NCBI RefSeq assembly: GCF_037042905.1
Contig: NC_087252.1
Coordinates: forward strand, 3,164,001-3,228,000
Source: Lytechinus pictus
Lineage: Eukaryota
Length of the DNA stretch: 64,000 bases
Direction: 5' to 3'
Under the pieces are notes generated by a model. That model ran no database searches, was not told the DNA's origin, and saw only the letters and a list, made by a program, of their open reading frames with translations. Positions 1-51,244 of this stretch are shown here, piece by piece. The first letter of the stretch is position 1. The number at the start of each line of letters is the position of its first letter. Both the position numbers and the translations under genes were made by a program.

Positions 1-800
1 TGGTTCCAAAGCCAGACGGCTCTCAGAGATTTTGCATTGATTACCGAAAGGTAAATGCAGTAACTAAGACTGACTCGTATCCAATTCCTAGGTTAGAAGA
101 TTGTATTGATAGGGTTGGAAAATCTGCCTATATCACAAAGATAGACTTGCTTAAAGGATATTGGCAAGTGCCACTGACTGACCGAGCCAAAGAGATATCA
201 GCCTTTGTTACACCTGAAGGCTTATTTCAATGCAAAGTCGTGCCTTTTGGAATGAAAAATGCACCAGCAACTTTCCAAAGATTAACAAATCAAGTGATTG
301 CTGGGCTTGACAACTGTGTCGTGTACATAGATGACATCCTAGTGTACAGTGATACTGGGAATGGTCATCTAGTCTCTAGATCATTTAAGAGCACTGTTTG
401 ACAGGCTGGATATAGCCAACCTAGTAGTGAATCTGATGAAGAGTGAATTTGCCAAGGCAAAGGTCGCCTATCTTGGTCATTTGGTTGGTCAAGGGCAAGT
501 TCTACCAAGAGAAGCCAAGATACAAGCTATCTTAGACTTCACAATTCCCACAACTAAGAAAGAATTGCTCAGATTCTTAGGTACGAGTGGCTTCTACAGG
601 AAATTTTTTCCAAATTACAGTACAGTGGATAGCCCTCTGACAAACCTGCTGAAGGCAAAAGTGAAGTATGTTTGGTCTGACGAATGTCAGAGATCATTTG
701 AGAAATTAAAGGCCATTTTGGTAAATGAGACTGTTTTGGCAGCTCCAAACTTCACAAAACCGTTCAAAGTAGCTATTGATGCATGTAATGTTGGAGTAGG
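1..800 (+). mobile_element. Ty3/Gypsy LTR retrotransposon pol fragment (RT and start of RNase H), frameshifted and truncated
   Basis: Frame 3 from base 3 reads VPKPDGSQRFCIDYRKVNAVTKTDSYPIPRLEDCIDRVG...DLLKGYWQV...PFGMKNAPATFQR...YIDD. After a frameshift near 360-420 it reads YLGHLVG...LRFLG..GFYRKF...FKVAIDACNVGVG, then stops abruptly at about 800. Confidence 0.93.
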
Positions 801-879
801 GCTCGAACCTCGAACCTCTGCATCAATTTGTAACTTCCCAACATAGCTTGGATTACAGGCGCACGCCACAACGCCCAGT
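798..879 (-). mobile_element. 7SL (SRP RNA Alu-domain)-headed SINE-like fragment with Pol III B box, 3'-truncated
   Basis: Minus strand reads ACTGGGCGTTGTGGCGTGCGCCTGTAATCCAAGCTATGTTGGGAAG...GGTTCGAGGTTCGAGCCC. The first 36 nt match the recalled human 7SL/Alu 5' end at about 28/36 positions by eye, including the UGUNR motif. Confidence 0.7.
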
Positions 880-881
880 TA

Positions 882-3379
882 AGCTGTGGTCACATCCCGT
901 CGTACTTGCACGTGCGCGCAGTCTACGTGCGAAAACGTGGGCAAAAATGGGGAAATTCGTACGTCACGCACGTGGTGAGTACCGACTCGGTACGGATTTG
1001 GCAGTGCGCAGACACGACGCAGAACTTTTAGTGCAGGAGGAACTTTCGCTGCGTGCAGGCTACGTTCGAGCTACGGATTTGCCCCACGTGCGCGCACGCA
1101 CGCCCTCGGTACTGCCAAAGTACGCACAACGCACCGACTCCGTGAGACTTTTTAGATATTCGCCGCGGCCACTTCCTGTACCGAAGGTGCACTTAGCAAG
1201 TGCGCGTTGCCGCACGGATAATTGCGTGGCCCGTGCTTACTCGGCACTTTCCCAATCTAATTATTCAAATGAACGTGAAGAACTCACGTGCTCGTGCGGA
1301 GTAAGCATGTGATCAGCACTTACAACGCACGTTGTGCTAAAATATAAACAAGAAAACACAAAGTCATATTCTATTACCATGTTCCACATAATGACCTTAT
1401 TCTTATTTATTCACACACTATATAATACATGAATTTCATGAACTATGTCCAAAATTTATTATCATGAGTGCTTGAAGAGGTTGTAGAATGTAAAAAATGA
1501 AATCGAATCGTGTATCATGAGTTCAAACAAAGACAGTGGGAAACTGTATTAGTCCGCCAAATAAAATAAAAACAAGAATGAAAAAAAATGATTTTTCATA
1601 GATTTCTATGAAATGAAATAATGCTTATTACGAGTTCCTGCGTTCACACAACGAGATCCTGCCATGGTATTCGTCCGCGCGGGGAACTGTAATAGTTCGC
1701 GAAGTAGTTCCTTAGGGGTTTTCCTTCCCTCACGGCCCGTTGGCCGACCATCTGGTCGGGTTCGGTCATCTGTACATCATTCCTCCAGGCCCCGGGGATT
1801 ACCTTGCCATCCGCATCCTCACGATCCACATTCACGTCAGTTTGTCCGGGCCGGTGCTTTCGAAGCAAATTGTGAAGGATGATACAACCCAACAGGACGC
1901 AAATTCCGTTGTTAGGCTCCATCTGCAAGGTAGTCAAGAGACATCGCCATCGATGAGCCAATATCCCGAAACCGTACGACACGACGAGCCCGAGAGGTCC
2001 GATAGTTCATTACCCTCTCTTTGTGTATCAGGGCATGGCGACAATATGGCTTCATCAGCCACTTTCGAAGGGGAAACGCGTCGTCACCCGCTAGGAAATT
2101 AGGAAAATTCTGGTCGTCACCTGGCAGTGGATCCGGTGGTGGAAATCCAATGGTGGTTCCCTCAAGTGCTCCCGGAATGCTCCCCAAAACGTGGACTGGT
2201 TGAACACGCCTGCATCTGAAGAGGAGCCGTTGGCCCCAATATTGCACCACAAGCATGACAAGAAGGAATAGTTAGAATCCACGATTGCCATGAGCACCAC
2301 AGAGCAGAACCACTTATAAGAGCGATCCACTCGTCCTGGGTAGAGGGCATGGTGCGCATCTATCTCCTTATATTCCTCGTATAGGGCGGTGCAAACTTCC
2401 GATACGAACATGGATATACTATTGTGTGCCACCCGGAAGTCATATGCAAGGGACCTGCTTCCCGTTGCCAAAAAAGCGAAGAGTGATGGCGAGTTTCAGG
2501 CCAGGTTCCAAGGCGCGGCGACTCCTGAAACATTGAAAGTATCTACACCATTGATATATAGTCAATATGTGTAATCACACGTAAAGACAATTCCTCCTTT
2601 TTTCTAAAAGGAAAGGCAACCCCCCTCCCCATAATGGAGAATATAAGTTTTATAATTGGCATTATAATTGCAGTTAGTTTTGCCCAAACCTTTCTAATAG
2701 TACATGGACCTTTTCTATTCAAGAAGGATTGCTTCAAAACTGTCAATATTCTTTATTACAAAATTAAGGAGTTAGAAGTAGCGAATGAAATAATTGTTTA
2801 TAACACGTCAAGTAATATTTGCCGTCCAAGTTATCGATTTTTATAAAGGTGCCACGTCTTGCTCATGCCCTGCCACTTGAAGCTGCTCTTGCAGTATCAG
2901 AAGTATTTGGAGTCTCTGTGGTAGAAGAGGCGGCATTTTAAAGGACGTCAGAAGATCAATCTCTATAAATATACCCCACCACATAGGGGGGGGGGGGGGG
3001 GGGGCTTACGTTCATCGCAAGTGCATGCAGTTGCAACCTGCGCGTAAGTAAGGACGGCGTACGTGAGCAGCACGTGTAAGTACGGCCTCCGTTCCAAAAT
3101 GTGTCGAACGCACGGAGATCGTACGTTGTAAGCAGGTACAACTCACCCCACACGTGCGCGACGTACATTGCACGCAATCGCTCACTGCAAGGCGTGACAC
3201 GCGGGCAGCGCACGCACTACGTACTTACACCTTGCGTAGTCGTACGAGTGACGTGCGTCGATGCACTTGCTCCCTGCGTTCGCCACTTTTCCCTACGTTT
3301 TCAGAAAAACGCAGCGACCGTAGCCTCCCCCAAAAAACGTACGGCCAAAGAAACCGTACGGCGGCTTGTGACCAGGGCT
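882..3379 (-). mobile_element. Decayed PIF/Harbinger DNA transposon
   Basis: Imperfect TIRs AGCTGTGGTCACATCCCGTCGTAC (882) and, in reverse complement, AGCCCTGGTCACAAGCCGCCGTAC (3379). TTA TSD at 879-881 and 3380-3382. Transposase remnants inside. Confidence 0.9.
1644..2530 (-). pseudogene. Harbinger (HARBI1/DDE_Tnp_4-type) transposase remnant, multiple frameshifts
   Basis: Across frames: LAITLRFLATG, SVVLMAIVDSNY, GSSSDAGVF, GDDAFPL...LMKPY, NYRTSRARRVV, FGILAHRWR, GCIILHNLLR. Confidence 0.9.
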
Positions 3380-3384
3380 TTAGT

Positions 3385-4093
3385 AATGAAATATGGTGTA
3401 GTCTTTGTTCCAGCCCCGGATATTTCACAATTGCATATCATAAAGAACACTATTAACAAAGACCCCACTATCTCATTGATGTTGAATAACTTGAAAATAT
3501 AGCGTAGTCTTCCTTCAAGACCCAGTTATTTTAAAATAACAAATCATAGAAAAGATATATAATAATAATAAAACAAAGGCCCCACAGTCTTATTGATGTT
3601 GAATAACATGGAAATATAGCGTAGTATTTCTTCCAGACCCACTTATTTCAAAATTACAAATAATTTTTTAAAGAGTCAACAAGAAACAAAGACCCCGACT
3701 ATAATATTAATGTTAAATAACATGGAAATATAGCGTAGTCTTTCATCCAGACCCAGATCTTTCAAATAACAAATGAATAATAATAATAATAATAATAATA
3801 GATTAATAATAATAAAAAGAAACAAAGACCCACGATCCTTTTCATGTTGAATAACATGGAAATATAGCGTGGGCTTTTCTCCAGACCCAGTTATAAAAAT
3901 CATTAAAAAAACACAACAACAACAACAACAAAACAAATAACCTGCAATCTTATCAACATTGAATAGCATGGACATATGGTGTAGTCTTTGCTCCAGACCC
4001 AGTTATTTCAAAATAGGAAATTATAAGAAACAATAAAACAAACAAACAAACAGTATCAGCAAAGACCCCACAATATCATTGATGTAGAATAAC
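3385..4093 (+). repeat. Degenerate tandem array, ~115-130 bp unit (ATGGAAATATAGCGTAGTCTTT..CCAGACCCAGTTATTTCAAAATAAC...), about 6 copies
   Basis: The core motif recurs near 3390, 3495, 3608, 3722, 3856 and 3968. Confidence 0.85.
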
Positions 4094-4224
4094 AATGTTG
4101 TTGTTGTTATCCTGGATTTTAAGGCGCGTATCATATTAATATTAACGCCTATGATTAATTTGTCGTCTTTGTGGTATACGTTATCACATGATTTTTATAG
4201 CTTGGCTTAATTATTATTTTTAAG

Positions 4225-7200
4225 AGAACTGGCTGTGGGGTAAAGACAACATTCTAAACCCAAGCATTTTAACTGGGTTTAATTTTGAAGATTGGTCTTG
4301 GCCTTGATTTTTTTTTCAATATTTGTTTATCTTTTAAATAACCGGGTCTAGACGAAAGACTAAGCATAATACTCGTGTTATTCCATAGGAATAAGAATAT
4401 GACAAAGTTTTATGTTTTTATGATTGTTTAAATTATTTTTTAAATGACTGGGTCTGGAATAAAGACAACGTTCTAAACATGTGCTTTTCTTCATGGTCTT
4501 AATTTGGAGGATTGTTTGTTCTTAGATTCGTTGTTGGGCATTGGGTTTTTTATTGCTTTTTTATTCTTGAAATAACTGTGTCTGGAGGAAATTCTACAAT
4601 TGATCTTCATGTTATTCCACAGTAATTAGATTATTGGGTATTCGTTTTAGAATATTTGTAAAAACTATTATATTTTTTTTCAAATAATAACCAAGTCTTG
4701 GGAAAAGATTATTGCTTTACCAATGCATTATTACAATGTTTTGTAGGGGTCTTAGTATTATTTAAAAAAAATGGGTGTTGGGTAAAGACATATTTTTTCT
4801 GGGTGTAACTTTTAGAAATTGGTCTTAGATTTGAAGTATTTTTAAATTCATTTTTTAAATAGGAAAGAGTACGTTTTGAATCTCGTCTTATTCCACAAGA
4901 ATACAAATATGATAGGGTCTTACGTTAGAAGATTTTTTTGGTAATTTTTTCAATGATTAGGTCTGGAATAAAGACCACGCTCTTATCCTCTTTTTAAAAC
5001 AGGTTTTTAGGTTGAATGATTGCTTGGTCTTAGATTTGTAGTTTTTTATTATTACTATTTGCGTTATTTTGAAGAAAAAAAATAACTGAGTCTGGCTGAA
5101 AGACTACGCTTTATGTCCATGTTATCCATCATTAACAAGATTATGGGGTCTTTATACTGTTTTTGTTGTATTGTTATTTATAATTTTGGAATAACAGGGT
5201 TTAGAGAAAAGACTAAGCTCAATTTCCATTTTAATTCCACCGGAATATCATTATGGTATCTTAGTTTGGACATATATTATGATTTTTGAAATAGCCGGGT
5301 CTGGAAAAAAGACTTTGGACTTATAGTATAATTTTTTAAACAACCGGGTCTGGAAAAAAGGCTTTGGACTTATATTATAATTTGTTTTACTCAAATGGGT
5401 CTGGAAAAAAGACTTTGACTTATATTATAATTTTTGAATTAACCAGGTCTGGAAAAAAGACTTTACACTTTTGTGCTATATGAACGCATTACTATAGGGT
5501 TTTAGTTTTGAATTTTTAGTAACTGGGTCTGGAGAGAAGACTAAGCTTTATTCTCGATTTACTCTTAGCTCATATATTCTCGATACGCGCCGTACAAGTT
5601 AAAACCACAACAAGACATTAATTCCACAAGTTTAAATTAACTGGGTCTGGAGAAAAGACTAAGCTCGATTCTCATTTTTATTCCACTTGAATATCATAAT
5701 AGTATCTTAGTTTGGACTTATATTATAATTTTTGAAATAACCGGGTCTGGAAAAAAGACTTTGGACTTATATTATAATTTTTTAAACAACCGGGTCTGGA
5801 AAAAAGACTTTGGACTTATTTTATAATTTTTTTAACAACCGGGTCTGGAAAAAAGACCTTGGACTTATTTTATAATTTTTGAAATAACCGGGTCTGGAAA
5901 AAAGACTTTGGACTTATATTAAAAATTTTTAAACAACCGGATCTGGAAAAAAGACTTTGGACTTATTTTATAATTTTTGAAATAACCGGGTCTGGAAAAA
6001 AGACTTCAGACTTATATTATAATTTTTTAAATAACCAGGGGCGGTATTCTGAAAACGTTCTTATCTTAATTTTGTTCTTATCTACGTCACGTTCTCAAAT
6101 TGGTATTCTGAAAACGTTCTTATCTTTTTCTTATCTTTTGTTCTTATCTTTTTCTTATCTTGCTTTCCATCGATGCTGAGCGCGTAAATTTATAATTCGC
6201 GCATATGATACAAAAGCGCGCTAAAAGATAAGAACAAAATAAAGATAAGTGGTATTCTGAAAACGTTCTTATCTTTTTTCTTTCTTATCTCTTTTCGATA
6301 TTTATGATAATATTTAAGATAGCTAGATGGTTATCACATCTTACGCTGTCCGCCTTCTTTCTTGCTAAAAATCGATGGCCACTGGTAGTAATAAGTATTC
6401 CTCCCAACCTTTCTTTCATTCACCCTTTATTTTGCCTGTCTCTTTTTTCTATCCCTTTTTTTTTTCTTTCTTTCTTTTTTTCTTTATTTCTTTCTTTCGT
6501 CCTTCCTTTCGTTCTGTCTTTCTTTATTTCATTTAGGCCTATTTCTTTTCGCTTTTTCTTTTCTATCTGTTTGTCTTTTTTCATTTCTTTCATTCTTCAT
6601 TTTGTTTTATTTTTTTTAATCTTTTAACTTCTTCCTTATTTTTCTTTTGCGTTATTTTATTTATTCTTTCTTTTTCTTTTTTTAATTGAATTTATTTCCG
6701 TTAAAAACCAATAACATAAATACATATGAAATGATACATGTGAATTGATAAATGAAAAACGGGAGGATGGCCTAGCTCAGCAGCATCAATCATGGTGCTG
6801 CTGGTCTACCGAGGGGTCCTTCCTTTTTTATTTTCCCTTTTCGATTTTTTCCTTTTTTTCTTTACTAAGTTTTTTTTTCTTTCCCATTTTCTCTCTTTCT
6901 TTCTGTTTTTCTTTTCCTTTCTTCCTTCACTTTATTTATTTTTTGTACTCTTTTTATTTCTTCATTTTTTAGGGTAAATTATATTTTATTTTTTTCTTTA
7001 TTCTTTCCATTGATCTTTCTTCGTTTTTTTTTCATTCATTCTTCATTTTTCCTGCCTTGTTATTTTCCTTCTTTTTCTTTCCTTCTTTGAATTTACCTTT
7101 CTTTTTATCTTTATTTAGTTTTCAATTTTGCTTTACTTTTCCTTTCATCTTTTATCTTCCCTCTCTTATCTCTTTCTTTCTCTCCCTCTCTTTCTTTATT

Positions 7201-8310
7201 TCTTTGTTTCATTTTCCCCTTTTCTCTCTTCCGTCACTTTTTACATATTTTTATTCCTTCCTTTTTTTGCTTTCTTTCATTCGTTTCTTCTAACTTTTTT
7301 TGGTTCTTTATTCCTTCATTTTATCCTTTTTAATCTTTTTATTTTGTACTTTTTCGTTTTTTCCCTTTAAGTTTTTTTTTTCCTTTTCCTTCTTTATTTT
7401 TCCTTCAATGTTTTATTCCTCTTTTTATCATTGATTATCATTCTATCTATTCCTCCTTTTTCTTACTGTATTCTTTACTTTTTTTTATTTCTTTTCATTT
7501 TTTAAAATTTTCTTTTAAGTTCCTTTTGCTTGCTTTCTTTCGTTTACCTTTTCTTTCTTTCATTGTTTTCTGCATTGATCCTTTTATTTTTTAAATTTCT
7601 ATTTCATTCTGACCCTTTTCTGCCTTCTTACTTACCTACTTACTTTACTTCTTTCTTCCTGTTTTATTCTTATTCGTAACTGCTTTCTTTACCTTTTTTC
7701 TTTAATTTCTTTCTTTCTTTATTTTGTGCACATGTCTCGAAATAATAATCACTCATTGCGTATAAAATGCCTATTTCGCGCAGTGCGCAAGAAACAGTGC
7801 ACGCGCAGCGCCCATGATATTCTCTTCACATAAGGAACGCTTTTATTGGTTAAACTGCCAATATAAAGCGCATTTTGATTGGTAATATCTTAAAAATGGG
7901 CGTGTTGAAGATAAGAAGGAGGCAGTCCTTACAGAGATAAGAACGCGTTAAGAAGATTTTCAGAATACCGATTTGCAATGATTTTAGCGTCTTCTTATCT
8001 CATTGAGATAAGAACAAAGATAAGAACAAAGATAAGAACGTTTTCAGAATACCACCCCAGGTCTTTAAAAAAAAGACTTTAGACTTATATGACAATTTTT
8101 TAATCAAACGGGTCTGGAAAAAAGACTTTGGACTTATATTATAATTTTTGAAACAACCGGGTCAGGAAAAGACTTTGGACTTACATTATAATTTTTTCAA
8201 TTAACCGGGTCTGGAAAAATGACTTTGCACTTTTGTGCTATATCATGAACCTATTACAATAGGTCCATCGCTATATGAACGCATGCATCACTACAGGATT
8301 TTAGTTTCGC
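4225..8310 (-). repeat. Same satellite family in inverted orientation, collapsing into a 48-bp unit (GGACTTATATTATAATTTTTTAAACAACCGGGTCTGGAAAAAAGACTTT); interrupted by a MITE at 6039-8057
   Basis: The TAACTGGGTCTGG..AAAGACT core is the reverse complement of the 3385-4093 core. 48-bp units lie at 5290-5460, 5715-6035 and 8060-8225. Confidence 0.85.
6039..8057. mobile_element. Non-autonomous PIF/Harbinger-type element (~2 kb) with a long pyrimidine-rich low-complexity interior
   Basis: TIR GGGCGGTATTCTGAAAACGTTCTTATCTT / AAGATAAGAACGTTTTCAGAATACCACCC; CAG TSD at 6036-6038 and 8058-8060; subterminal TTCTTATCT repeats; T/C-rich from 6400 to 7720. Confidence 0.85.
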
Positions 8311-14578: not shown

Positions 14579-14864
14579 TCAATCATGTTTTTGCTTAGAA
14601 GAAGAGAAACATTTCCGTTTACAGAACCCAATAGTGCGTCGGATGCTATAGAAAGAAACTACTAATATTACTAAGATCACGGCTAGGAGAAAGGCCAAAA
14701 CATCTAGCATATTACGCTGTATAAAGTTGAGTCCAATCAGTGGGCTTCTCATGTAGCCGCCTCCATGCTTCATCACGTGATTTACCCAGAATGCAGCGCG
14801 ATCACCCGGATGCATCGACCTACTTTGCAGACGAGAGGACAGTAGCGTTGTCACCTCCGAGTAA
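14579..14864 (-). CDS. UGT exon 6 (TM helix, dilysine motif, stop)
   Basis: ttcgcag|SYSE...DRAAFWVNHVMKHGG..LDVLAFLLAVILVILVVSF...KQKHD*. Confidence 0.92.
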
Positions 14865-17800
14865 CTGCGAATACGAAACGTAAAACATTCATAATTCGCA
14901 CGATGAAGGCGGGGAAATTTTAAGTTCAAATCTTTGTGAAGGGACAGACCAAAATTCGTGTTGTTTTCAAAGACATAGAATACTATCGGTCAGTTTGGAG
15001 TCACTTCTACGATAGCATGAGTAAAACCAATCTAAAAGAAACGCCTTTTTTTACCAGGGATTTAATAGATGTTTAGGAGAAATCGTGAAATCGAATACAT
15101 TCTTTTGATGATGTGGAAGTATTATTGATAGAGAGGAACAATTAACAGCAGTCTTTAAAATAGGAACTGTTATGAGCGTTCAATAAGGTCATGGATGCAA
15201 TTATATCTTTGTATCCATGGGCGTCAATCAAGGTGGATGGAACAAGGATAAACGTGAAATGATTATAAATTTACAGGCTTGTGTTTCAATAATTGTTTTT
15301 GTTTTCTTCAAAATATATTTAATACAGTATGAAATGTCGATAGGGATTTTTTTAAACATACAATGGTGTAAACTGAATCTGGATTTGACTGTACAGACTA
15401 AAGCCCGATTTCAACCATATCCCTCAAGGTTCTGAAATAGAAATCTACTCCCGTGCAATAACCATGAAAAATATTAAATACCTATTGCTGTTGAAGATTG
15501 TCTTTATTGCATCGTCTAGTACATCAACAGTTACTTTGGTCTTGTCAAGGACTATGCCGAAACCGTGATGAGTCAGTCGAGACCCCTGATCTATGGCATC
15601 CCCTGTGAGTGGTATTAGAATAGCTGGGACACCATGGTACATGGTCTCGGAAAACCCGTTGTTGCCGATATGGAAAATGAATAGACGTGTCTTCGGGTGA
15701 CCTGAAAGACCACACAATTGCAAAGTTTGAATGCGTTAAGATTACCAACGACTTTTGTGAAGATTGCCAACTTCTTTTGTTAGTTGGAGACAATCTTTAG
15801 CATAATCTTCTTCAAAAACAGAACTCTGAGTAACCCTAACCCCAACACTATCCTTACCTAAAATATCATTTTGTGGCAGCCATGGCATCATCTTTACATT
15901 TGACGGTATCTTGAACTTAGGTTCACCGACGAACTGCCACAAAACCTTGTGCTGCGGATACCGACCAAAGACCTCGGCAAATGGTTCAAGGAATTCTTGT
16001 TTGATTTGGGTAACATAAGTACCGAGTGTGAATAAGATGACGCCACCATCGCCAGATGACTGCATAAGGGCCTATAGATCCTGGAAAAATAAAGGAACGG
16101 TTAAGCATCAAAATTGTAGTCCTGTGGTATTTACTCAGAAATTAATACATACATTCATACCGTTGAAATCTGGTGGAAAAAATCATATTTAAAAAAAAAA
16201 CAAGTTCACACCTAGTTACCAATAATACATATAGTATTTCCATTTATTTTATAGCAGGATAAAAGAGCATTGTAGATTAAATGCCTTGCTCACGGACATA
16301 GGTGCCGCGGCCGGGGATCGAACCCGGACTTGTTCATGTATAGCCAGGCGCCTTAGACCACTCGGCCACGGCACCTCCATCGTTTAACAGAGTATATTAA
16401 TCTAGCTCCCTCTTTCCTTTATGTGTATGGTTTTTTTTTCTTTTTTCTGTCTATTTCTCCTGTTTGTTGTTGTTAATGTGTTAGTTTGTTCAGCTTCGGT
16501 GTCTGATTATGCGGGGAGAGGGGAGACTCATGGGGCGGGAGAATGAAAAAAAAATTACACTCAATCATTCAATTTGCTAACGTTATGTGATAATTTCTAA
16601 TTGCTTTAGCTGCATACAGTAGACGTAGAAAATGCTATTTTTTTTATGATTTTGGATTATGTCTCTGTCTTGAAATTATCTGTTATTTTTTATTCATCAT
16701 TTGATTTGTGTATTCACAGCCGCAATTGATTTGTTATGTTATTTTTGTATGATATTATCTAAATTACGTATGCATGAATTTCATTTAAAGTGAATGAATA
16801 ATAAAGATTACTACAAAACAATATTAATTGTTATAAACATACGTTAGAAAATAGATGTATCCCTTACCGGAGGGCAGTGGTGAATTTCTTCCCACATGCG
16901 TCAACAAAAAAAAATGTACACGATTTCAAAATGTGTGGTAATGATTAACGGTACCCCCCCCCCCTTTGAAGGAGGAATATATTTCTTTCACAAACACATC
17001 AAGGGTCCAAAATCAAATCACAGTAGGTAATACTAAATTTGATTTATTTACCCAATGACGGATTACAAACTTGGAGCAAGTTCAATTATGACCAAAAATT
17101 ATTGAGGTCAATAGAACCTTGGGAGGAAAAGGCAGAGCCAGTATTGTTTACAAACCATTCGAACATCGGTGGGAATCACATTGACTTAGATAAACTAATG
17201 ATGAATTCTATGGAGGATTTTCGGGCTAAAATTAATTGAATTCTTCCATGAAAATACAACAGAAAACTATTTTTTTTAAGAAACAAAATATCACCGATAG
17301 AGGGTGCTAGATAAACAATATTTTTATTATTTGAAATTTTCACAGAGAAGTGGCGGTTGGAAGATCTAAACTGTCTTTACACCTCTGTAAGATTGGTATG
17401 TTAGGCAAGACTAGATTATAATTCACATTACTGTCTCTTCACCAAAACCAAAGGCTTGAAAGTTAAGTTGCGTTTGATTGTTGGAGTTGTATTTTATTGA
17501 TAGTCTTCTTGCACCACTGAGCCTCAGGATCCTGTAACACAAGGGTTAGCGATTAATCTTACTCTTGATTTTGTTTACGATTGACTGTATCATTGTACAT
17601 TTTATTCAATGCAATCAAACGTATACAAAAAGGTTATAGGATGATTATTGAGCTTTGTGTTACGAGGCCCAGAGCTTACATCTGGTAATGGTGCTGCCGG
17701 CCTTGCAGTGATTCCTCCTATGGTGATGATATTCGGAAGGAGCGGGAGCGGGTACTCCACCGCAAAATCCATATTGACCAGGAATAGATCGGTGTAGGTC

Positions 17801-20800
17801 CCAATGAGGTCCGAGATAGATCCTGGCAAATCCTGCCTGATCTGATGACGTTCTCTGACTGTATTGAAAGGCCCATGCATGTACTCTAATACCTGGAATA
17901 ATACCTGATTGGCTACTACGTTGTTCACACGCTGTAGATAAAACAAAAAACAATATAAGATTATTTTAAAAGGTGTTTAATTCGGAATTCATCTTTCAGC
18001 GATTGTCATATAAAGGAATGAAGACGTTTGGTGTGCATTTTTTTAAATTATGGTCTAACTCTAAGGATACATAATGTTGTAGCCAACAATGATGTATGTG
18101 GTAAGAGAAGACAAGCAAAATCAGAAGAACTGAAAATGGGAGTTAATATTTGATGGAAATCAAATTTTGAAAATTTATACAAGTTATGCTTCTGATATTA
18201 TTTTTAAGGCATCAATTTAGGCCTTTGATGGCAATAATGAAGTTTGCAATCCAGTATATACAAATGATAATTTCCACGTGTGTAATATAAAGGGATCTAA
18301 GTTGATAAGGTGAGTATTGTTGGCTTTGTCATGCAGTATATCTTGAACATAATTTCTCTGCTACATACGTATCTAAAACTGTATTTTTAAGGGTGAAATT
18401 TATGGGCGCAAAATGCACATACATACACACACAATGTTCTTCCACACACAATATTATTTTACGTAGTAGCCAATGCGCAAAGTGTTTATTTCATCAATTT
18501 CTTCAATTGGTACACAATTGCATTTATCCCAACTTGTTGCATTTGATCTTGAAGGATGCGATTCGGGAAATATATATATTTTTTTAATGAACTGAAACAT
18601 TTTGGGAAGAATATCATTCAAACATGCTTACTTGTAGAAAGGACATTTTATTTGTATAGGCATTCATACAATCTGGAGTGTAAGCCAAATTGACCGGATT
18701 TCGTGCGTACATGGACAGCATCGTCGGCACAGCCATTGGGGAAGACAACACTGCGGTTGTGTTCAGTTTCATGGCCACTATCAGACTGCACAACCAGATC
18801 ATGTCATAGACGACCACGTCGAACTTGCCGTCTTCGAGTTGGTGCATGACGTCGGGGTTTCCGAGGAGGTCTTCGCAGTCGTCCGCCGCACCTTGACGAT
18901 GGGTTTGCATGAGGTTGATGATGTATGTCGCCGTACTTGGTTCAAGTGCATTCTATGAATAGGTGGATGGTGAAGCGACAATAGAGCTTGATTCCAAAAG
19001 GAGCTAAATCCACTTTTGACCAAAATTGATTTTTTTTTTTTTTACAAATATACTGTATGTATCTTAGACGTGGCAATCAAATACAACATATCTCATTTGA
19101 TAAAAAAAGGGAATGGTTGGTAAAAATTGATTGCAAATTTGAGTTTTGTTCCGATAGGAGCTAAATCCAAAACAGTTTTGTTCCAAAAGTAGCTGCGGTT
19201 ACTTTAAATTTGTTATTTTTCCTATCTTAAATGAAGTAAATCATTCAATTTTGTAGATACATGTTGTGGATACAAGTTCACACCATCAGTGCAAATTTTG
19301 CCGAAAATATAAGAATTTTACATTGTTTATGAATATTTTTGGATTTAGCTTTTTTTGGAATTAGATATCGAAACGTCACCGTCGTTAGAAAGATGACAAA
19401 ATATCATGTTTTTTTCTTTTAGTAATTTTCGATGGATAAACATCAGAAAAGATGTGAAATGTACTCTAACATCCATATTTATGAGTTTCGTGTTCAATTT
19501 AAAATATCAAACATGTCTAAATTTGCAAAAACTGACATTTTACTGGGGTTTTGTTCCAAAAAGAGCTAAATCCGTGAAAAATATAATTTCATTTTTTTTA
19601 ATTGATAATAAATGCTAGATTTTTGAAATGATGATTTAATTAATCTAAGACGGTAGTACTATCATCTATATCAAAATAAAACAGCAGTGGCTTAGGTATA
19701 GTGGTGAATAAAAAAAACTCGATTTACAGAAAATACCAAAAATGGATTTAGCTCCTTTTGGAACAAAACTCTTATTGCTCCTGTGACATTTGCTCCGGTT
19801 CCGATATATTAGAGGGCAATATTATAGTTAGAATTAGATTGTAACATTAATTTTGGTTCAGAATAGTATAAAGATAATGATCAGTTTATAGAGTTATGGA
19901 GGTTGAATTGTATGTTTGGCTTAACTTGCAGATTTTCCATCGGTGCAATTGTCGCCGGAGCAAACGTCATGTAAACAAAGAAGTGAAATTTAAATACTCT
20001 TTATATGTATATATATATATTTGACGGAAATGGAACACATGTTGCCCCGTTTGACATAATATGAGATCAAGTTGCATTTTTTCATTAAGCTTTCGTTATA
20101 TTCTAAGGTGGTAACCTTTCTCCGTTCATATTTCAATACATTAACGAGGTGCTTGAATGACACTTTTATATACTTCAGTTGAAAATACATTAGAATGAGA
20201 GATTACAATAAAAAAAAAGTGCACCTACAATCTTAATTAATTCCCTATGGACATTGGCTAATCCTTTTTTAATTACATACATTTTTTTATATCATGATGT
20301 TTGTATCTTTAGGGCTTTATTTAAAATTTAGTTTACTTTATCTATAAGATTGTTTATAAATTTGCATATTAGCAATGAGATAATTAAACAATGACATTAA
20401 TAGAGATGATTTGATTGTTGATAAAATCTAATCATATTTGATAAAATCTGAACAATTTTCGGTCAGGCTTATATTCATTTGCATATCAGCAATGAGAAAA
20501 TTAAACAATGAAATGAATACGGATGATTTAATTGTTGATAAAATCTAATCATATTTTGATAAAATTTGAACAATTTTCGGATGGGCTTATATTATAATCC
20601 TATTTGAATTATACATTTTTTTTCCTACTATGATATTTGTGTCTTTGGGGCTTTATTTAAATTTTTTTTACTTTATTTCTAAGATTGTTTATATGTTTGC
20701 ATATTAGCAATGAGATGATTAAACAATGAAATGAAAACAGATGATTTAATTGCTGATAAAATATAATATTTTGATAAAATTTGAAATTTTTTGGTCGGGC

Positions 20801-21283
20801 TTATATTCACTAAAATGTGAGAAAGGATTATATTAACTAATTGGTCAGTACTCTATCTAATAATAATAATGAACACCTGAGACCATGAGGGATGTAACCT
20901 ACATGAAAATACTACAGATATCACATGTAGGCAACACAAAATGGTTGATCAGTCTTTACCTTTGAGAAGGCCAAATGTCTTTCTTTGACAGACTTAATCT
21001 GCTCAGTCGATTGATGAAACGCAATGAAATTTAACTCCGAGTCGTCAGGATTATCTGCCCGGTGAGCATACGCTTCGCTGACGAGAACCGTCACATTATG
21101 ACCATGTCTAACGAGGTATTTTCCAATCGTCTTCCCGACGAAATAGTGCGATCCTTCGCCAAGGCTTGTGGTGATTAAGACGTTGCCCGCCAGCAGGCTT
21201 GGAGGCAGGATAAGAAGCACCACACAGAAACATATTAATGGGACTGCATTCGATCTTCGCAGAAGAAAAGATGGATTCGCCAT
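14579..21283 (-). CDS. UDP-glucuronosyl/UDP-glycosyltransferase (membrane-bound animal UGT), 6 exons, 541 codons, with an in-frame TAG at the start of exon 4 (null allele/pseudogene, or rescued by an alternative acceptor)
   Basis: Exons 21283-20960, 18952-18632, 17931-17680, 16080-15858, 15701-15482, 14864-14579; all introns GT-AG, phases 0,0,0,1,2. Signal peptide, GSH catalytic His, RHGHNVTVL, FDVVVYD, UGT signature [34 protein letters not shown], C-terminal TM and KQKHD dilysine ER-retrieval motif. Confidence 0.93.
15482..15701 (-). CDS. UGT exon 5 (UDP-sugar binding signature)
   Basis: ctttcag|[16 protein letters not shown]...HGVPAILIPLTGDAIDQ...AG|GTATTT; 220 nt. Confidence 0.92.
15858..16080 (-). 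CDS. UGT exon 4 (contains TAG at 16074-16072)
   Basis: ttttccag|GAT CTA TAG GCC CTT ATG CAG..., then SSGDGGVILFTLG...[15 protein letters not shown]. Confidence 0.88.
16266..16378 (-). mobile_element. tRNA-derived SINE 5' fragment in UGT intron 3
   Basis: Minus strand: GGAGGTGCCG-TGGCCGAGTGG (A box)...GGTTCGATCCC (B box)...TGTCCGTGAGCAAGGCATTTAA (conserved SINE body motif). Confidence 0.82.
17528..17669. mobile_element. Small PIF/Harbinger-type MITE next to the UGT exon 3 donor
   Basis: Ends GATCCTGTAACACAAGG / CTTTGTGTTACGAGGCC; CAG TSD at 17525-17527 and 17670-17672. Confidence 0.7.
17680..17931 (-). CDS. UGT exon 3
   Basis: ctacag|RVNN...EYPLPLLPNIITIGGITARPAAPLPD|GTAAGC; 252 nt. Confidence 0.9.
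18632..18952 (-). CDS. UGT exon 2
   Basis: ttcatag|NALEPSTATYIINLMQ...DGKFDVVVYD...NKMSFLQ|GTAAGC; 321 nt. Confidence 0.88.
18969..19976 (-). mobile_element. Old short relative of the TU-like element family (see 56678-60468), split by a nested MITE
   Basis: Left GGTGAAGCGACAAT[insert]TGCTCC matches GGTGACCCGACAATTGCTCC; right GGAGCAAACGTCATGTAAAC matches GGAGCAATTGTCATGGAACC. TSD not clean. Confidence 0.55.
18984..19771. mobile_element. MITE with GAG...CTC termini (Sola-like), internal copies of the TTCCAAAAGGAGCTAAATCC motif
   Basis: GAGCTTGATTCCAAAAGGAGCTAAATCC versus GGATTTAGCTCCTTTTGGAACAAAACTC; motif repeated near 19141, 19340 and 19550. TSD not clean. Confidence 0.72.
20270..20810. 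repeat. Imperfect local tandem duplication (three copies of a ~115-bp core) in UGT intron 1
   Basis: TTTGCATATTAGCAATGAGA..TTAAACAATGA...GATAAAAT..GGCTTATATT at about 20361, 20478 and 20696. Confidence 0.8.
20960..21283 (-). CDS. UGT exon 1 (signal peptide, catalytic His)
   Basis: MANPSFLL...LGEGSHYF...HGHNVTVLVS...LAFSK|GTAAAG; 324 nt. Confidence 0.88.
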
Positions 21284-24200
21284 TGTCTTGCTTTCTCCCT
21301 GAGCGGACGGTCTCCGTGCTCGAGATGGATGTCTCAAACATCAAATAAGGAGTGTAATCATGATGTTTGTATCAGCCAACACAGTGCCATCATGGGGACT
21401 CTGATAAAAACCGTGCATAATTATTATTCTCATTGAAGTCCGTTGCTTGAAAGCGGATAATGCTTTCCTTCCGTTCGAGCCCTTGGTAAAAAATAAATAT
21501 GAACCTTATACCGTGATTACCGTATATAGCTACGTGATGAGACGAAGCCAATCCTCGTTCTCCCACTGACCAAGTTTGTACTAACCAGCAGTCGTGTTGT
21601 CATTGAAATGATGTGAATTGTCCCTCAATTTTGGAAGGAAGGTCAGTGCTTTATAATAAGTAAATAGGCCGTTGAAGTGATCAGTTGAGCTTAGTCTGCC
21701 TGAACAGACCCTTATTGGTATTTTTAGCGGTGTTCGCAATTTCAGATCATGGCACACATATGGTAGTCGTGTACTGTACATTTCAAAATCTAAGTTTGAC
21801 ATATTTGGTTCGTACTTGGAACTTGCGTATTTCTGTTTGTATGCATCCACATTCGAAAATGACTGTAATTTCAAATTATTTTGAAAATTTTAGGTTTGTG
21901 CTTGTCATTGTCCGAACCCATGATCCCGTCTCGCTCGTTTTTCTTTCTCAAACTATAAAGAATAAAAATATAAATTAAACAGATGCAGTTATTTTTTCGT
22001 CTTACACGAAATTGACAGTTAATTGATTGACGCACGCTGGAGATTGCCTATACCAGAGCATAGATTTATATAGAAAAGGTAAAAGGAGTATTTAAAAGGA
22101 GTTCACTCGTCTGTGAGAATTTTTAAAACGATGTTTAATTTGTATTTTCAAACAGTTCCTATGTTTTTAAGAATTTCATTTAAATGTTAGTCAAATTTCC
22201 TCGAACGGGTAAGCCTTAGTAAATATAAGTATTAATGTAAATCTATATTAAGTTCCTAGTTCCCTTTTGTTCTGACGGCTTTGATCATGGAACATCAAAA
22301 GCGTCAGAACATGTGTGGTTTATTGCTTGTTTCAGAGCCAAAAGATCATTTTAAAGAGCTAAGATTTGTGTCTATATTCATGTAATGAACTCATCACAGC
22401 CGTTTCTTCCAGCGTACACTCTTTTTCACCGAGTGGGGGCGTTATAAATCCAAATAGAGCTCTCAGATTGAGTACATTATTTCTGGTTGAATACTCTTGC
22501 GAATAGAGGGAGAGTAAATGCAAATTAATAGGCCTAAATATGCGTATGATTGGTTTCGATTCCTGGGAATTCTTATATTCCCAATTGTTTAAAGCATCAA
22601 CTGAATTAATCGGAATATAGATACATGCTTTTAAAGCGACAACATTCTAACGGGAATAATTTGCATTTCCGAATAGCATTTTTTTATATATTCAGTTCCA
22701 TGACATACGGGTACTATTGATGGTTGGGATGTATCATGTGCTGGTTAAATCCTGAAACACTTTGTCGATGATACTCACTTCCTAAATTCCTCCAGAGAGA
22801 TTCACTTCAACAATGTAAAAAAATCGGAACAAGCAGACTACACCATTGATAAAAGGAGACACAAAAAACTATTTACCAAAGGTGGCGCTATAATATTTTG
22901 ATGAGGGTGGGGGTGTAGAATTGAGGTGATGTTATTTCTACAAAATAGAATGATATGGTTATTATATATTAACATGGCCCAGATCGATCTCTCATTCTTT
23001 TTTATAAACTAATCGTTTTACCGTTATCCCTCTGTGTTTGCTAATTAAAAAATCATGTGCTCCGCCCCGTGTAGCGCTGCCACCGATGGCCTCTTAAAAA
23101 TAACAGCAATCATCTGTTTTGGAAACATATCCGCCACAAAAATAAATATAAATTTATACTAAATATTAAGAAGATGTATTTCCCAAATTTGTGAATCTTT
23201 TTCTGGCAAACCAGCACAAAACCAACAATAATTCTACAAAAATAAATGTACTCTTCTTCCAGTTTTGAAAATATATCCTAAGCTTTGCAGCTACTTTGAA
23301 ATATTGAGCCCCATCATTTAAAAAACGGGAAGTCCCTCGTTTATTTTCCAGTTTTAAGATAAATCTGAAAAGGTCTGTTTTCTGTAAATCCTTTTCCTTG
23401 TTATAGTCTTATCTGTGTATTATGTAGATGGTGTTTTAATAAACTGAAAATATACCTTTATTTATTATGTTCTTATTTCACTGAGACCCATGTAGCAGAA
23501 TACGCATGAGTTTTGTTCACTATATCAGAGGTTCCTTTAAATTCTTTCCATGATTTCACTAGTGTATATTCAGACTTGTAACACTAAAAGTGTCATCGGT
23601 CGTTAGTAAGTTTGACAACCCTTAAAGTTTACATGGAAAACAAAACACACGCACATACCCATACAACGTACTTGCGAAAACACACCTACGCACACACAGC
23701 GTCGCATGCCATTATAGCCTCCCACGCCCTTGCACACGCACTCACACCCACTCCCACGACCCTTGCACACCCACACACATCCTTACAGACAAATCCCTCT
23801 CTCTATCTCCCTTTGTCTTTTATCTCATTCAATTTTTCTAGTCAGTTTTAATATGCGTTGACATAGTTGGTGCATGTGCAAGCGATTGTGCTGAGCTGCA
23901 GGCGGGAAATTTAATGTACATAATAATAATTTACTATTCCAATATTAATTCTTATAATCTGGTCGCACAAGCATCGGGAAATTTTATTGTTTAAAATTAA
24001 CAAACATAAATATTGCATCGATAATTATGCCGAAGAAACAGTTAACTTTAAATCGTGTTTAAAAAAATAGTTTCACCTGAATACTTAAACATATGCACAA
24101 ATCTTAATTACTCGGCATATGCCTATCGTGACATTATGCGGAGACGCCGTTTCCATTGGTTGTGTAGTTTATCATCATGTGCTTGTAAAGCTGTTTATTT

Positions 24201-33100: not shown

Positions 33101-36100
33101 TTTGCGAGTACTCTAAACGAGCAATGTCATGAGATTTTTGTTATGGCATATAATTTCCTCAATCATTATTGATCCGTAAATTAAAATCGGTATCAAAGCA
33201 CGCGATGCCAACAATGAAATAATGATCAATGGAATAATAATAGTAATAATAAAATGACAATTATGGTGATAATACCAATAACAATAACGAATGAATATAA
33301 ATATGCTAAGAATGAAACCTTTAACGAAACAAAATGCCTTGTACTGTAAGTTTGAAAACTGATATTAAATAGTAAGCTTTGACCCATTGGCGAATACCAA
33401 ACATGACGGAACAATTTATTGTTATTCATTATATGGGATGGCAAGTACAATTTCAAACAACTTATCAATAATCATGTTAATCTCATAAAAAAAAATAATA
33501 CTGCGGTCTACAGCCAATGACCTCCATCTACTCATGCGCAATCTGTAATTACGAAATGGCACATTCAGTCATATTTAGCAAACGAAATAAAATAAAAACA
33601 ATATCAACCTTGTGCTTCTTCATCACTTGCCAGACTTGGATTACTTTTCTCAGGAGTTGTCGCAAGATATCTGATTGGGTGACTTGTTCCTACATATTTT
33701 GGGAAACAAAAAGAGTGCTTAATGTTAACATTCAAACTATTATCAACTGTATTAAAAAATACCCTTGATTGCATTCGTCATGTAACGTCATTACTTGTGT
33801 CCAGGATCCTCTAATAATCAAGGGGAACCTATGTATTGCTACATGTATATTGAAAATCGAATAACATAGATATAGCAAAAAATGTCTAATAAAATGAAAT
33901 CCTGACCTGAGATGGAACAGATTGTTTACCATTTGAATTTCGCACTCGTCGCACTCGTTTTAAGAACATAATGTTGGAATTCATTATCATGAAACATCTC
34001 TCTCTAGACAAATTTTTCGAGAGCGAATCACTAGCGGATATTTGATTTTACGCATTTATACCTGTAAATGAGACATCTGCAATTACTAGCTCGTATCAAA
34101 TAAATGCCATAAACGCAAGCGTATATTTTGTATAAACTGACCCCCAAAATAAAGGCAATTTTAGCGATCGTTTGTAACAATTCTTAAAAAAATAATATTC
34201 ATACACTTATAAAACAAATAATACTGGTGCAATATGAATAATGCAAATTCCGTTATCAATCTCTGTCGGTTGTTTACATAAATATAAATAGGAGAAAAAC
34301 TGGGAATGGTTCGAGGAAAAAAAGGAAACAAAAGAAAAAAAAAAATATTTTCATATTAGCAGAGGCGACAATTAGAACAGATTTACCTGTTTACTGTACA
34401 TCTCTTCTGTGAAATATATAATAGAAGGGGAATACCTGTAAAATACATGTAGCTTTCATGTGACCAAGGAAAAAAAATTGGGAGAACGAAGGGAACAAGA
34501 TATTCACTTGTGGTAAATGACAGTACACAATTACAGCAGTAGAATTTCGATATTTGTATCAAATTAAAAGTGGAACAAAAAATAATGTTGTTAATCTTCA
34601 TTGAATTCCACAGTGATTATGTAAAATGAAATAACTACACGTAATCTCTTTAATACAGGGTACAATCTAATTTTCCTGCCAATGCTGAAAACAAATGTTC
34701 ACACATTGCTTTGAAAAAAAAATCACTAATTAAACTCATTGACTGATTACCTTCATTTCTTATGATGACTGATGTTGTTATGTTACGATACGATTCGTTC
34801 GCCACCCTACACACTACCTCAAGCTCATCAGTACCGTTGTATACTGGTGTGAAGACGATAGTTCGTGTAGGCACTGTGAGTCGTCCATCATGGGGAACAT
34901 TCACATTCTCTTGTAAATCATCATATATATTTATTCCATCTGATACATCCCATTCCAAACTGACTGGTGGTTTTACTGATCCATTGGTTTTGCAGACAAA
35001 TGTCCTATTTTCCCCTTCTGCAACCGTGAGTAGACTTTGATTATGTAGAACGGCTTGGTCAACTTTGTCGATTACAATAAGTCCTTTAGGTGGAACTGAA
35101 ATCATTTAAAGATATGCTCTTGAAAGGTAATTATTGTGGTGTTATTATTTTTTATGTGCAACTGATTTAGAAATTTGCTCATCATGCATGTCATGATATT
35201 AAGCCAGTTCACTGTTAGCTGATGACTTTTCTCAAATTACCTTTGCGATTTTTCAGTAGGATGAGCACTAACATTTTCAAATGTAGATGTTGCGTAAGTT
35301 TTCCCGGCAAAGCATTCAAATTCTACGAATGAAAGGCATTGCATACATGGTATAGAGCAGGTGACTAGAATAGTACATCAGGGGTAAAGTTTTTTTTTTA
35401 TCTGCTTGTTTTATTGTCTGCTTCTGGCACATTTTGACTATAGTTTCGGCTACTGTTAAATTCCAGTTATTATAAAGACTTTGTTACTCTTCAGCTTGGA
35501 TGTGATGAAAAAAATATTTTAAAAGTAATACATGAATAATCATCAAATCACAAATGCCTATGTCAGTAAATTTGAAAACCGCCTTCATGGTTCATCGCAA
35601 ATTAACTTTTACTGCTTGTGCGCAGTTTGCAAACGTGAACAGGCTTATAGGAATATGCTGATAGGGAAAGGTTTCTATAACTTCATTATATATGATATCT
35701 TTTATTGTATTATAGCATGTCAGTATTTAATGTTTGGCCTATGATGTTCTTTCCGCAGGTAAAATTTAGAACATAATCATGATTATACAAACGATGATTG
35801 TAATAAAAAAAAAATTGATACAATTATGACAATGAAAAAAAGATTATTTTTAAAGGTAATTGGTGTAATAAAATAACAGGCATTCAATATATCCATAAAC
35901 TTGATATTGCCAAAAAATGATTTAGTGAAATAGATACCATTCACTGTCAGGCTGATGCAACATGTCTTTTTTGCCGGAGCTGTCGCAGTAACAGAAAATA
36001 TATCCTCATCAGCAAATGAAGTGTTTCTTATTGTCAAATTACTGACAAGCCCATGGTTCATTCCAAGCGTATGTACCGCTGTGTTCTTTCGGCATTTTGT

Positions 36101-36937: not shown

Positions 36938-37144
36938 GATGAAAGCTGAAGATCGCACATTACCAAGGAAGAAAGACGACACATAATTTACCAAGTGAAT
37001 TGAAATGACGATGTACTCTACAAAAAAAGGAATGTTCTTCCAAAACAGAGAAAACATGAATGGACACTAAATAGTCAAGGTTGGCGCTATTTATGACTAA
37101 CATCAGTGGATCACACGCGTAAAACATTTCCATAAACATGATAA

Positions 37145-37561
37145 AGGTCACTGCACACCTTACGACTGTTCGCGATCCGATTTTGGAACAAATCGCACTT
37201 TCCTCATTTTCAGAAAATGTGAATGGAACATATCATTTTATTTGAGGTTAAAATTACTGGAAAGAATACTTATTTAACCATTTTGAAAGATCACATGCCT
37301 TTATTTTGGAGTAAAGGCCAAATTAGTTTCAAATCGTAGCAAATCGTGCGAATAATATGACGTCATAACGACTAGATGTCAAATTCGCTTTTATTCTAAG
37401 AAGGATGTTAGCATAGTCACATTATTTGAACACAGGTATTCGTACAATGATTTCGTACATTATATAGTAAGATATTCCAAGTGTCAATATTAGCATCAAA
37501 TTCTACTACCTTTTATTCCAAACTTTGGATCGCAAAACATTCGTAATAAGGGCGGTCATCT
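37145..37561. mobile_element. Harbinger-like MITE (TAA TSD) about 200 bp upstream of the IgSF ATG
   Basis: TAA|AGGTCACTGCACACCTTACGACTGTT ... AACATTCGTAATAAGGGCGGTCATCT|TAA. Confidence 0.6.
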
Positions 37562-37564
37562 TAA

Positions 37565-39488: not shown

Positions 39489-39630
39489 TTAAGACTCGTG
39501 CGTTAAAGTTGGACTGTTAAAAAAAAATCAATAAAAAGTAAAGTTGAAATCAGAGGGTCGAACATTTACTACCAGTGAATATGATAGATACCTGAAATTA
39601 TATTTCTGACCAGAAAAGGGTACCTTGACT

Positions 39631-51160: not shown

Positions 51161-51244
51161 TGTTAATTGTTTTTCTTTGTTTAATTTGAAAGTGTTTCTT
51201 CTGCGCATCTTTATCGGCACAGCCTTCCTGGCCAGATTTTTAGT

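What the first reader, a model, noticed from the sequence alone, without database searches (positions are those of the whole stretch)
798..879. Alu-like 7SL head fused to a tRNA-type B box in a non-mammalian animal
Seen: the minus strand reads ACTGGGCGTTGTGGCGTGCGCCTGTAATCCAAGCTATGTTGGGAAG. It keeps the SRP Alu-domain fold: GGCG/CGCC helix, UGUAA motif, TCCAA/TTGGGA helix and complementary TGGC/GCTA loops. It then leaves 7SL and runs into GGTTCGA-GGTTCGAGCCC. Known: 7SL-derived SINEs are rare and mostly described from primates, rodents and tree shrews, while invertebrate SINEs are usually tRNA-derived. Inference: this is the head of an independently evolved 7SL-derived or 7SL/tRNA chimeric SINE that might recruit SRP9/14 as Alu does. 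The 3' part is missing, apparently deleted at the junction with the Gypsy pol.
Basis: partly seen in the sequence, partly recalled or inferred. Interest (0 to 1): 0.72.

Follow-up and report, generated by a model that had tools for sequence, protein, structure and literature searches.

The report
Sea urchin SINE with 7SL head
This is the cut-off front end of a repeated jumping-DNA element in a sea urchin whose first 47 bases match the start of signal-recognition-particle (7SL) RNA, the same small piece human Alu needs in order to jump; it likely arose when that piece replaced the front of an ordinary tRNA-type element, an origin that the papers I saw report only for a few vertebrates.

Summary
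Window 833-879 (minus) matches positions 1-47 of the Rfam metazoan SRP model (E 2.5e-6, 33.6 bits, below the cut-off of 70), with helices, U-turn and loop pairs kept; the match ends there. The host is a sea urchin. Reads and contigs from three coded organisms hold the non-7SL part (798-840) and share one continuation that the window lacks; in two of them other copies run on into a 7SL-like head. The continuation resembles the Deu/Nin SINE core. Three metagenome loci carry that body, a hairpin and a CA-type tail behind non-7SL, B-box-bearing heads, with the B box at the same distance. So this is a 3'-truncated copy of a 7SL/tRNA chimeric SINE, likely formed by head swap. Unlike Alu, B1, Urop and hagfish Ebu1-1, it seems to keep only the 5' domain, about the 46-nt unit shown to suffice for Alu jumping. 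RNA reads are 96% on one strand. Copy number, host 7SL gene, partner LINE, SRP9/14 binding and Repbase/Dfam status were not testable. The scan noted this family before on other DNA of the same genome.

The parts
833..879 (-). 7SL-like 5' Alu domain (model positions 1-47): closing helix, helices 3 and 4, U-turn, loop-loop pair
   Evidence: Rfam RF00017 alignment; pairs read by eye; motif definitions from PMC12265939
866..875 (-). Pol III A-box-like stretch inside the 7SL head; 8 of 10 letters equal to the human 7SL A box printed in PMC7245038
   Evidence: by eye
810..832 (-). Linker of unresolved origin; ends in the first of two 7-nt tandem units
   Evidence: no tRNA hit at E<=10; no significant local match to L001-L003 heads; weak semi-global match to L003, 36 of 2000 shuffles
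799..809 (-). B box (GTTCRANNC type), 19 nt before the Deu-like motif as in L001-L003; likely the 3' part of a tRNA-type SINE head
802..815 (-). 7-nt tandem duplication; a minority of copies has one unit only
   Evidence: table 7, rows at place 809: 103 reads in X22, 12 contigs in X4
798..800 (.). Junction: 3 letters shared by SINE and Gypsy; SINE body and tail and the rest of the Gypsy element are missing
   Evidence: SINE records match from 798, Gypsy contigs match through 800
1..800 (+). Gypsy-type pol fragment (RT and RNase H), frameshifted near 373-401, cut at RNase H profile position 42 of 100; neighbour, not part of the SINE
882..3379 (.). Harbinger-like DNA transposon remnant inserted at the SINE's 5' end; inverted ends 16 of 21 alike, TTA on both sides (879-881, 3380-3382); neighbour
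   Evidence: DDE_Tnp_4 E 0.016, below cut-off

Best explanation
Window 798-879 is the 3'-truncated front of a repeated sea urchin SINE whose first 47 bases match the 5' Alu domain of 7SL RNA and which likely arose when that domain replaced the 5' half of a tRNA-headed Deu/Nin-type SINE. Shown: 7SL match over positions 1-47 only; many other copies; a shared continuation with Deu-like core; sister elements with the same body and other heads; RNA almost all on one strand. Inferred: Pol III transcribes it from the 7SL A box and the kept tRNA-type B box; the 47-nt head folds into the Alu pseudoknot, binds SRP9/14 and brings the RNA to ribosomes; a LINE reverse transcriptase recognises a 3' hairpin and CA-type tail (seen only in the sister loci) and inserts new copies; full length about 175-180 nt. 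This copy is dead: a deletion with 3-nt microhomology joined it to a Gypsy pol fragment, and a Harbinger-like transposon landed at its 5' end.
For: (SRP model, 1-47). (host: 5 of 173 candidates, all sea urchin UGTs, best 85%); 1,073 of 8,710,588 records of raw RNA run X22 laid, at most 1 on the Gypsy part; 81 of 799,175 (X2), 581 of 18,470,044 (X4), 1 of 18,652,641 (X14) contigs laid, Gypsy-part records included; one shared continuation before 798 (838 reads, agreement 0.95; 21 contigs X2; 67 contigs X4; 1 diverged contig X14); six listed X2 contigs of 836-4,817 nt hold the piece internally with 4-6 differences; loose ends behind 839 match window 840-869 at 22 of 30 (X4, 51 contigs) and 19 of 30 (X2, 8 contigs) letters by eye; first mates 1,028 on + against 44 on -, i.e. 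RNA in 7SL sense if the library is of the usual stranded kind. Continuation vs BivaMD-SINE1_AsNo: 25 of 28 letters with two gaps by eye; similar motif in hagfish SINE2-7B_EBu. L001-L003: same body (76-84 identical of 88-92 aligned), B box 19 nt before the motif in 3 of 3, no Rfam hit at E<=1, tail hairpin. A 46-nt 5' Alu domain binds SRP9/14 and supports Alu retrotransposition (PMC11760393). Composite 5S + partial-tRNA heads by template switch are a precedent (PMC4824008).
Against: No whole genome, so no copy count, no target-site duplication, no full-length copy and no host 7SL gene seen by me. No run holds more than half of the words of 700-1100, so organisms A-C are not shown to be the window's species. 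The head of other copies is seen only as noisy loose-end lines (agreement 0.46-0.59); in X22 it matches 13 of 24 letters and in the single X14 contig 2 of 9. Rfam finds no tRNA in 770-840 or in the L002 head (only a weak tRNA-like mascRNA hit, E 2.4). Anchored identity of the 37 nt before the junction to sister heads is only 13-15 of 37. Only 30 nt of the family's own body were seen; the tail is borrowed from sister loci of unknown host. In SRP, SRP9 also contacts the 3' helix (PMC4238359), which seems absent. The strand bias comes from one run and could stem from a few abundant mRNAs.
Confidence: 0.8

Rival explanations
1. Same chimeric SINE, but the 7SL piece serves only as an A-box donor or hitch-hiker; SRP9/14 binding plays no part in its spread.
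For: The 7SL 3' helix seems absent; sister SINEs with the same body spread with other heads; tRNA-derived B2 and SINEC_Cf jump without an Alu domain (10.1101/2024.05.03.592410).
Against: The kept piece ends at position 47, the border of the folding domain and about the 46-nt unit that suffices for Alu; an A box needs only the first 14 bases; U-turn and loop-pair bases are intact. In a young family this can reflect lack of time.
Confidence: 0.35
2. The B box descends from 7SL itself, improved by mutation as in Alu, so the head is one diverged 7SL 5' stretch of about 80 nt fused to a Deu body, with no tRNA part.
For: The B box sits at element positions 71-81, near the 76-86 given for human 7SL (PMC7245038); no tRNA hit.
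Against: The SRP model aligns poorly after position 47; B box and the following 8 letters are collinear with three non-7SL sister heads.
Confidence: 0.1
3. A 7SL pseudogene fragment that lies by chance next to a truncated tRNA SINE at this one locus, or a diverged true 7SL gene.
For: One copy in the window; the locus is a nest of broken elements.
Against: Other copies in X4 and X2 run from the B-box part into 7SL-like letters in register; score far below the SRP cut-off, no S domain; the continuation is a Deu-like SINE core.
Confidence: 0.06
4. Human Alu contamination or an assembly chimera.
For: Overlapping weak hit to the primate mir-1268 model (that this family is Alu-derived is recalled).
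Against: The head joins without a seam to a repeat found in public runs whose other copies show the same join; flanks are sea urchin-type transposons and genes.
Confidence: 0.02

Closest known systems
SINE1-1_EBu (Ebu1-1), hagfish (Kojima 2020, PMC7245038; parts 1-3 of 4 read, one supplement passage)
   Same: 7SL-derived head put on an older tRNA-SINE body by chimera formation; microsatellite-type tail; non-L1 partner proposed.
   Different: Ebu1-1 keeps 7SL 5' 96 nt plus the 3' end (whole Alu domain) and an RTE-derived tail; here only positions 1-47 match, the B box seems to come from the tRNA SINE, the body is Deu-like, and the host is an invertebrate.
Alu, B1, Tu (supraprimates) and Urop (shrew mole; PMC13023118, passages)
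   Same: 5' Alu domain with U-turn and loop pairs; A box from 7SL; Tu elements are 7SL/tRNA chimeras.
   Different: All keep both 7SL ends after a central deletion and use L1 through poly(A); here no 7SL 3' end is seen and sister tails are hairpin plus CA repeats.
DeuSINE / Nin-domain SINEs: BivaMD-SINE1, SINE2-7B_EBu, sea urchin SINE2-3_SP (PMC4824008, passages and supplement file 2 passages)
   Same: Core motif right after the head (25 of 28 letters to BivaMD-SINE1_AsNo by eye).
   Different: Their heads are tRNA- or 5S-derived.
Engineered 46-nt minimal Alu domain SA46 (PMC11760393; abstract and passages)
   Same: Same stretch of 7SL (1-46/47).
   Different: SA46 is a construct driven by a CMV promoter with poly(A) and human L1 ORF2p; this would be a natural counterpart with its own promoter and another LINE.

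Membership tests
SINE (SINEBase definition, PMC3531059) | Short (<1 kb) interspersed repeat | tested here: met
   Found inside at least six long contigs with 4-6 differences each; sister loci put the body at about 95 nt.
SINE (SINEBase definition, PMC3531059) | [quoted passage not shown] | tested here: inconclusive
   67 (X4) and 21 (X2) contigs share the continuation, but contigs are not loci; no genome held. Earlier scan notes give 1,200-1,900, not checked.
SINE (SINEBase definition, PMC3531059) | >=60% identity to tRNA, 5S or 7SL over >=60 nt | tested here: not met
   7SL match spans about 47 nt; no tRNA model hit. SINEBase allows exceptions where Pol III transcription is shown; that is not shown here.
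SINE (SINEBase definition, PMC3531059) | Target-site duplication and tail | not testable with these tools
   3' end deleted in this copy; no clear duplication around L001-L003.
SINE1 in the broad sense (7SL-derived head) | 5' end derived from 7SL RNA | tested here: met
   RF00017 positions 1-47, E 2.5e-6; host gene itself not seen.
SINE1 in the broad sense (7SL-derived head) | Not a plain 7SL retrocopy (distinct, shared non-7SL structure) | tested here: met
   Shared non-7SL continuation in three runs' contigs and one run's reads.
Alu/B1/Urop/Ebu1-1 type | Both 7SL ends kept, central deletion | tested here: not met
   No 7SL 3' match in the 82 nt of the window or the 30-nt continuation by eye; no SRP hit in sister bodies. 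The family's own last ~65 nt were not seen.
Alu/B1/Urop/Ebu1-1 type | U-turn triad and loop-loop pairing bases for SRP9/14 | tested here: met
   By eye alignment against the motifs in PMC12265939.
Alu/B1/Urop/Ebu1-1 type | Binds SRP9/14 | not testable with these tools
   Needs a pull-down.
DeuSINE (Nin domain) | Deu/Nin central domain of 70-120 nt | tested here: inconclusive
   28-nt core similar to BivaMD-SINE1 and SINE2-7B_EBu by eye; full domain not aligned; the paper places a Deu part after the Meta part but no domain borders were seen in the supplement passage.
7SL RNA gene (RF00017) | Full-length match at or above 70 bits, with S domain | tested here: not met
   33.6 bits; 199 model positions skipped.

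The most novel reading that the evidence does not exclude
An independently born, Pol III-transcribed invertebrate SINE that uses only the 47-nt 5' Alu domain of 7SL to bind SRP9/14 and reach ribosomes while relying on a hairpin-recognising, non-L1 LINE: a natural version of the engineered minimal Alu domain, and the first 7SL-headed SINE outside vertebrates.
Probability: 0.45. Interest if true: 0.78.

Novelty: new variant of a known kind. Interest (0 to 1): 0.62.

Why it matters
As of 2026, PMC13023118 lists 7SL-derived SINEs only in supraprimates, hagfish and shrew moles, all keeping both 7SL ends. A sea urchin family with the 5' domain alone would show that the central-deletion route is not the only one, and that evolution kept about the same 46-47 nt that cell assays found sufficient for Alu. 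Because sister elements share the body under other heads, head swaps could test directly whether SRP9/14 recruitment helps a SINE outside the L1/poly(A) system.

Tried and rejected
No whole genome held. A 24-nt pattern from the non-7SL part: 0 loci in metagenome, viral and prokaryote genome contigs. Body motif: 0 in the window, prokaryote genomes and viral contigs. Tail motif: 0 in the window; 1 viral locus, L004, a chance match inside a phage head-tail gene cluster. No partner LINE tail in the window (best E 0.05, AT-rich noise). No tRNA gene in the window. Run search: no RNA holder listed on record. The 43-nt non-7SL piece does not fold better than shuffles (46 of 200); whole sister bodies neither (32-130 of 200); the tail hairpin was picked by eye, so its scores (0, 18 and 1 of 200 for L002, L001, L003) are after the fact. 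Reads were laid on 721-840 only, so depth and variants over the 7SL head are unknown. Adapter-like loose ends at 833-838 (adapter identity recalled) were not read as RNA ends. Summed contig depth was not used as copy number. I first guessed a Meta domain; the supplements point to Deu/Nin. Sequence look-ups of earlier findings gave nothing.

Full report
Observation. Rfam gives 2 matches at E<=1 in 1-3000: Metazoa_SRP at 775-879 minus (33.6 bits, E 2.5e-6, cut-off 70) and mir-1268 (32.8 bits, cut-off 83); across the window the SRP match has E 5.4e-5, one of 9 matches at E<=0.5. The alignment is confident for model positions 1-47 (window 879-833) and poor beyond, with 199 positions skipped. By eye: closing helix 3 of 3 pairs, helix 3 6 of 8 standard pairs, helix 4 3 of 3; G4/U23/G24 and the GGC-GCU loop pair named in PMC12265939 (passages) are present. 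An A-box-like stretch (866-875) has 8 of 10 letters of the human 7SL A box printed in PMC7245038. The B box is at 799-809. The element occurs once in the window.

Host and surroundings. A UGT exon at 14582-14944 hits 5 of 173 candidates, all from Lytechinus or Strongylocentrotus, best 85%: a sea urchin, species not determined. No whole genome is held. To the left lies a Gypsy-type pol fragment, RT and RNase H, cut at profile position 42 of 100. To the right, 882-3379 has inverted ends (16 of 21 alike), TTA on both sides and a weak DDE_Tnp_4 remnant (E 0.016), which fits a Harbinger-like insertion whose target includes base 879 (that Harbingers duplicate TTA/TAA is recalled). Whether base 879 belongs to the SINE or to its flank is therefore open.

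Is it a family? 20 of 24 listed runs from four coded organisms hold part of 700-1100, none more than half of the words. I laid 4 of the 24 on 721-840. Laid: 1,073 of 8,710,588 records of raw RNA run X22 (organism A; 726 at 99% or more), 81 of 799,175 contigs of X2 (A), 581 of 18,470,044 of X4 (B), 1 of 18,652,641 of X14 (C); contig counts include Gypsy-part records. Depth jumps at 797-800 in all four. Before 798 all four show one shared continuation: 838 reads (agreement 0.95), 21, 67 and 1 (diverged) contigs. Six listed X2 contigs of 836-4,817 nt hold the piece internally with 4-6 differences; 646 pieces and 44 loose-end rows were not shown. Behind 839 the loose-end lines match window 840-869 at 22 of 30 letters (X4, 51 contigs) and 19 of 30 (X2, 8 contigs) by eye, but only 13 of 24 in X22 and 2 of 9 in X14; the tool leaves out human-like records, so the closest heads may be missing. 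Rows at place 809 (103 reads, 12 contigs) show copies with one 7-nt unit instead of two, so the GGTTCGA doublet marks the majority subfamily.

Expression. In X22 first mates lie 1,028 on + and 44 on - over 813-824, with at most 1 read on the Gypsy part. In the usual stranded library this is RNA in 7SL sense, 96%. Five variant positions are each seen in 60-93 reads from 31-57 starts, so several copies contribute. Passive inclusion in introns and UTRs would be expected on both strands, so this favours own transcription, but it is one run, and abundant mRNAs with sense copies are not excluded.

What follows the head. The continuation resembles BivaMD-SINE1_AsNo (25 of 28 letters, two gaps, by eye; PMC4824008 supplement file 2; file 1 not searchable) and hagfish SINE2-7B_EBu; PMC4824008 describes this part of BivaMD as a partial Deu/Nin domain and lists SINE2-3_SP as a sea urchin DeuSINE. 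A scan of metagenome contigs with a 22-nt body motif gave 3 loci. L001-L003 share a ~95-nt body (84 of 92, 76 of 88, 83 of 88 identical), a hairpin and CA- or CAAC-type tails (L001 ends at its contig edge). None has an Rfam hit at E<=1. In 3 of 3 a B-box-like stretch starts 19 nt before the motif, exactly as in the window family; L002 also has an A-box-like stretch. Further upstream the likeness is weak (local scores reached by 313-1,441 of 2,000 shuffles; semi-global 36 of 2,000 for L003 only), and Rfam sees no tRNA in either head. The hosts of these loci are unknown. The simplest reading is a head swap: 7SL 1-47 replaced the front of a tRNA-type Deu SINE and the B box was kept. Template switching is the route proposed for composite 5S/partial-tRNA heads and for Ebu1-1.

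Mechanism. Shown: structure of the parts, multiple copies, strand-biased RNA. Inferred: Pol III transcription from a hybrid A/B promoter; folding of the Alu 5' pseudoknot; SRP9/14 binding and ribosome docking, by analogy with SA46, which binds SRP9/14 as well as SA86 and supports one round of retrotransposition (PMC11760393); copying by a LINE that reads the 3' hairpin. Against the binding step, SRP9 contacts the 3' helix too (PMC4238359, passages), and that helix seems absent. No partner LINE was found. I put 0.8 on the SINE and head-swap reading and about 0.55 on SRP9/14 mattering.

Known or new. PMC13023118 (passages), PMC10886601 (passages) and PMC11760393 list 7SL SINEs only for supraprimates, hagfish and shrew mole. 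Searches of the held library for 7SL with sea urchin, echinoderm or invertebrate terms and for two sequence motifs (0 papers) showed no echinoderm 7SL SINE in listings or in the passages read (also PMC3531059, PMC11481361, PMC5786205, PMC8615465, PMC12617341). PMC4758252 was seen as a listing only and Nisson 1988 as a reference line only. SINEBase supplements could not be read, and Repbase and Dfam are not searchable here; an entry there could remove the novelty. It works like Alu by prediction, but is not of the Alu/B1/Urop/Ebu1-1 type, since both 7SL ends are not kept, and it misses SINEBase's 60-nt overlap rule.

Earlier notes. The scan has noted this family many times in the same genome (29 notes for one word search), with 1,200-1,900 copies, 170-190 nt, a host 7SL match over 45-47 nt, a tRNA-His half and an I/Nimb partner. 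These are unchecked leads; I could test only the Deu-like core, the tail type and the head-swap idea, and only in part.

Verdict. Real, correctly read, a dead truncated copy of an unusual family: new variant of a known kind, interest 0.62.

Noticed in passing
window 3368-3379 and 798-803: The right end of the Harbinger-like element shares 12 letters with the SINE family's B-box end plus the start of its continuation (by eye). Probably chance; the deletion point lies inside this stretch, not at its edge.
   Followed up: partly
window 882-3379: Decayed Harbinger-like transposon with inverted ends and TTA on both sides, inserted at the SINE's first base.
   Followed up: partly
L001:330-487, L002:330-495, L003:170-375: A non-7SL-headed sister SINE family (B box, Deu-like core, hairpin, CA/CAAC tail) in three metagenome contigs; heads differ strongly while bodies are 86-94% alike.
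   Followed up: partly
window 14579-21340 (minus): Exons of a UDP-glucuronosyltransferase gene, 85% to Lytechinus variegatus.
   Followed up: partly
window 34650-41721 (minus): Immunoglobulin-domain exons (I-set E 1.7e-4 at 35786-36343), perhaps a membrane receptor gene.
   Followed up: no
window 48366-52434 (minus): Near-complete LINE with ORF1-like, endonuclease and RT frames, broken once between endonuclease and RT frames; its 3' flank does not resemble the SINE tail.
   Followed up: partly
window 53717-62264 (minus): Decayed Gypsy-type element interrupted by two inverted arrays of a short repeat at 56686-57035 and 60170-60463.
   Followed up: no
window 62742-63670 (plus): LINE ORF1-like frames with a zinc knuckle, running to the window end.
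   Followed up: no
window 3388-6039, 8069-8263: Minisatellite arrays of about 49 and 100-115 nt in both orientations.
   Followed up: no
window 61132-61355: Long hairpin that hits three plant miRNA models below their cut-offs; likely an inverted repeat.
   Followed up: no
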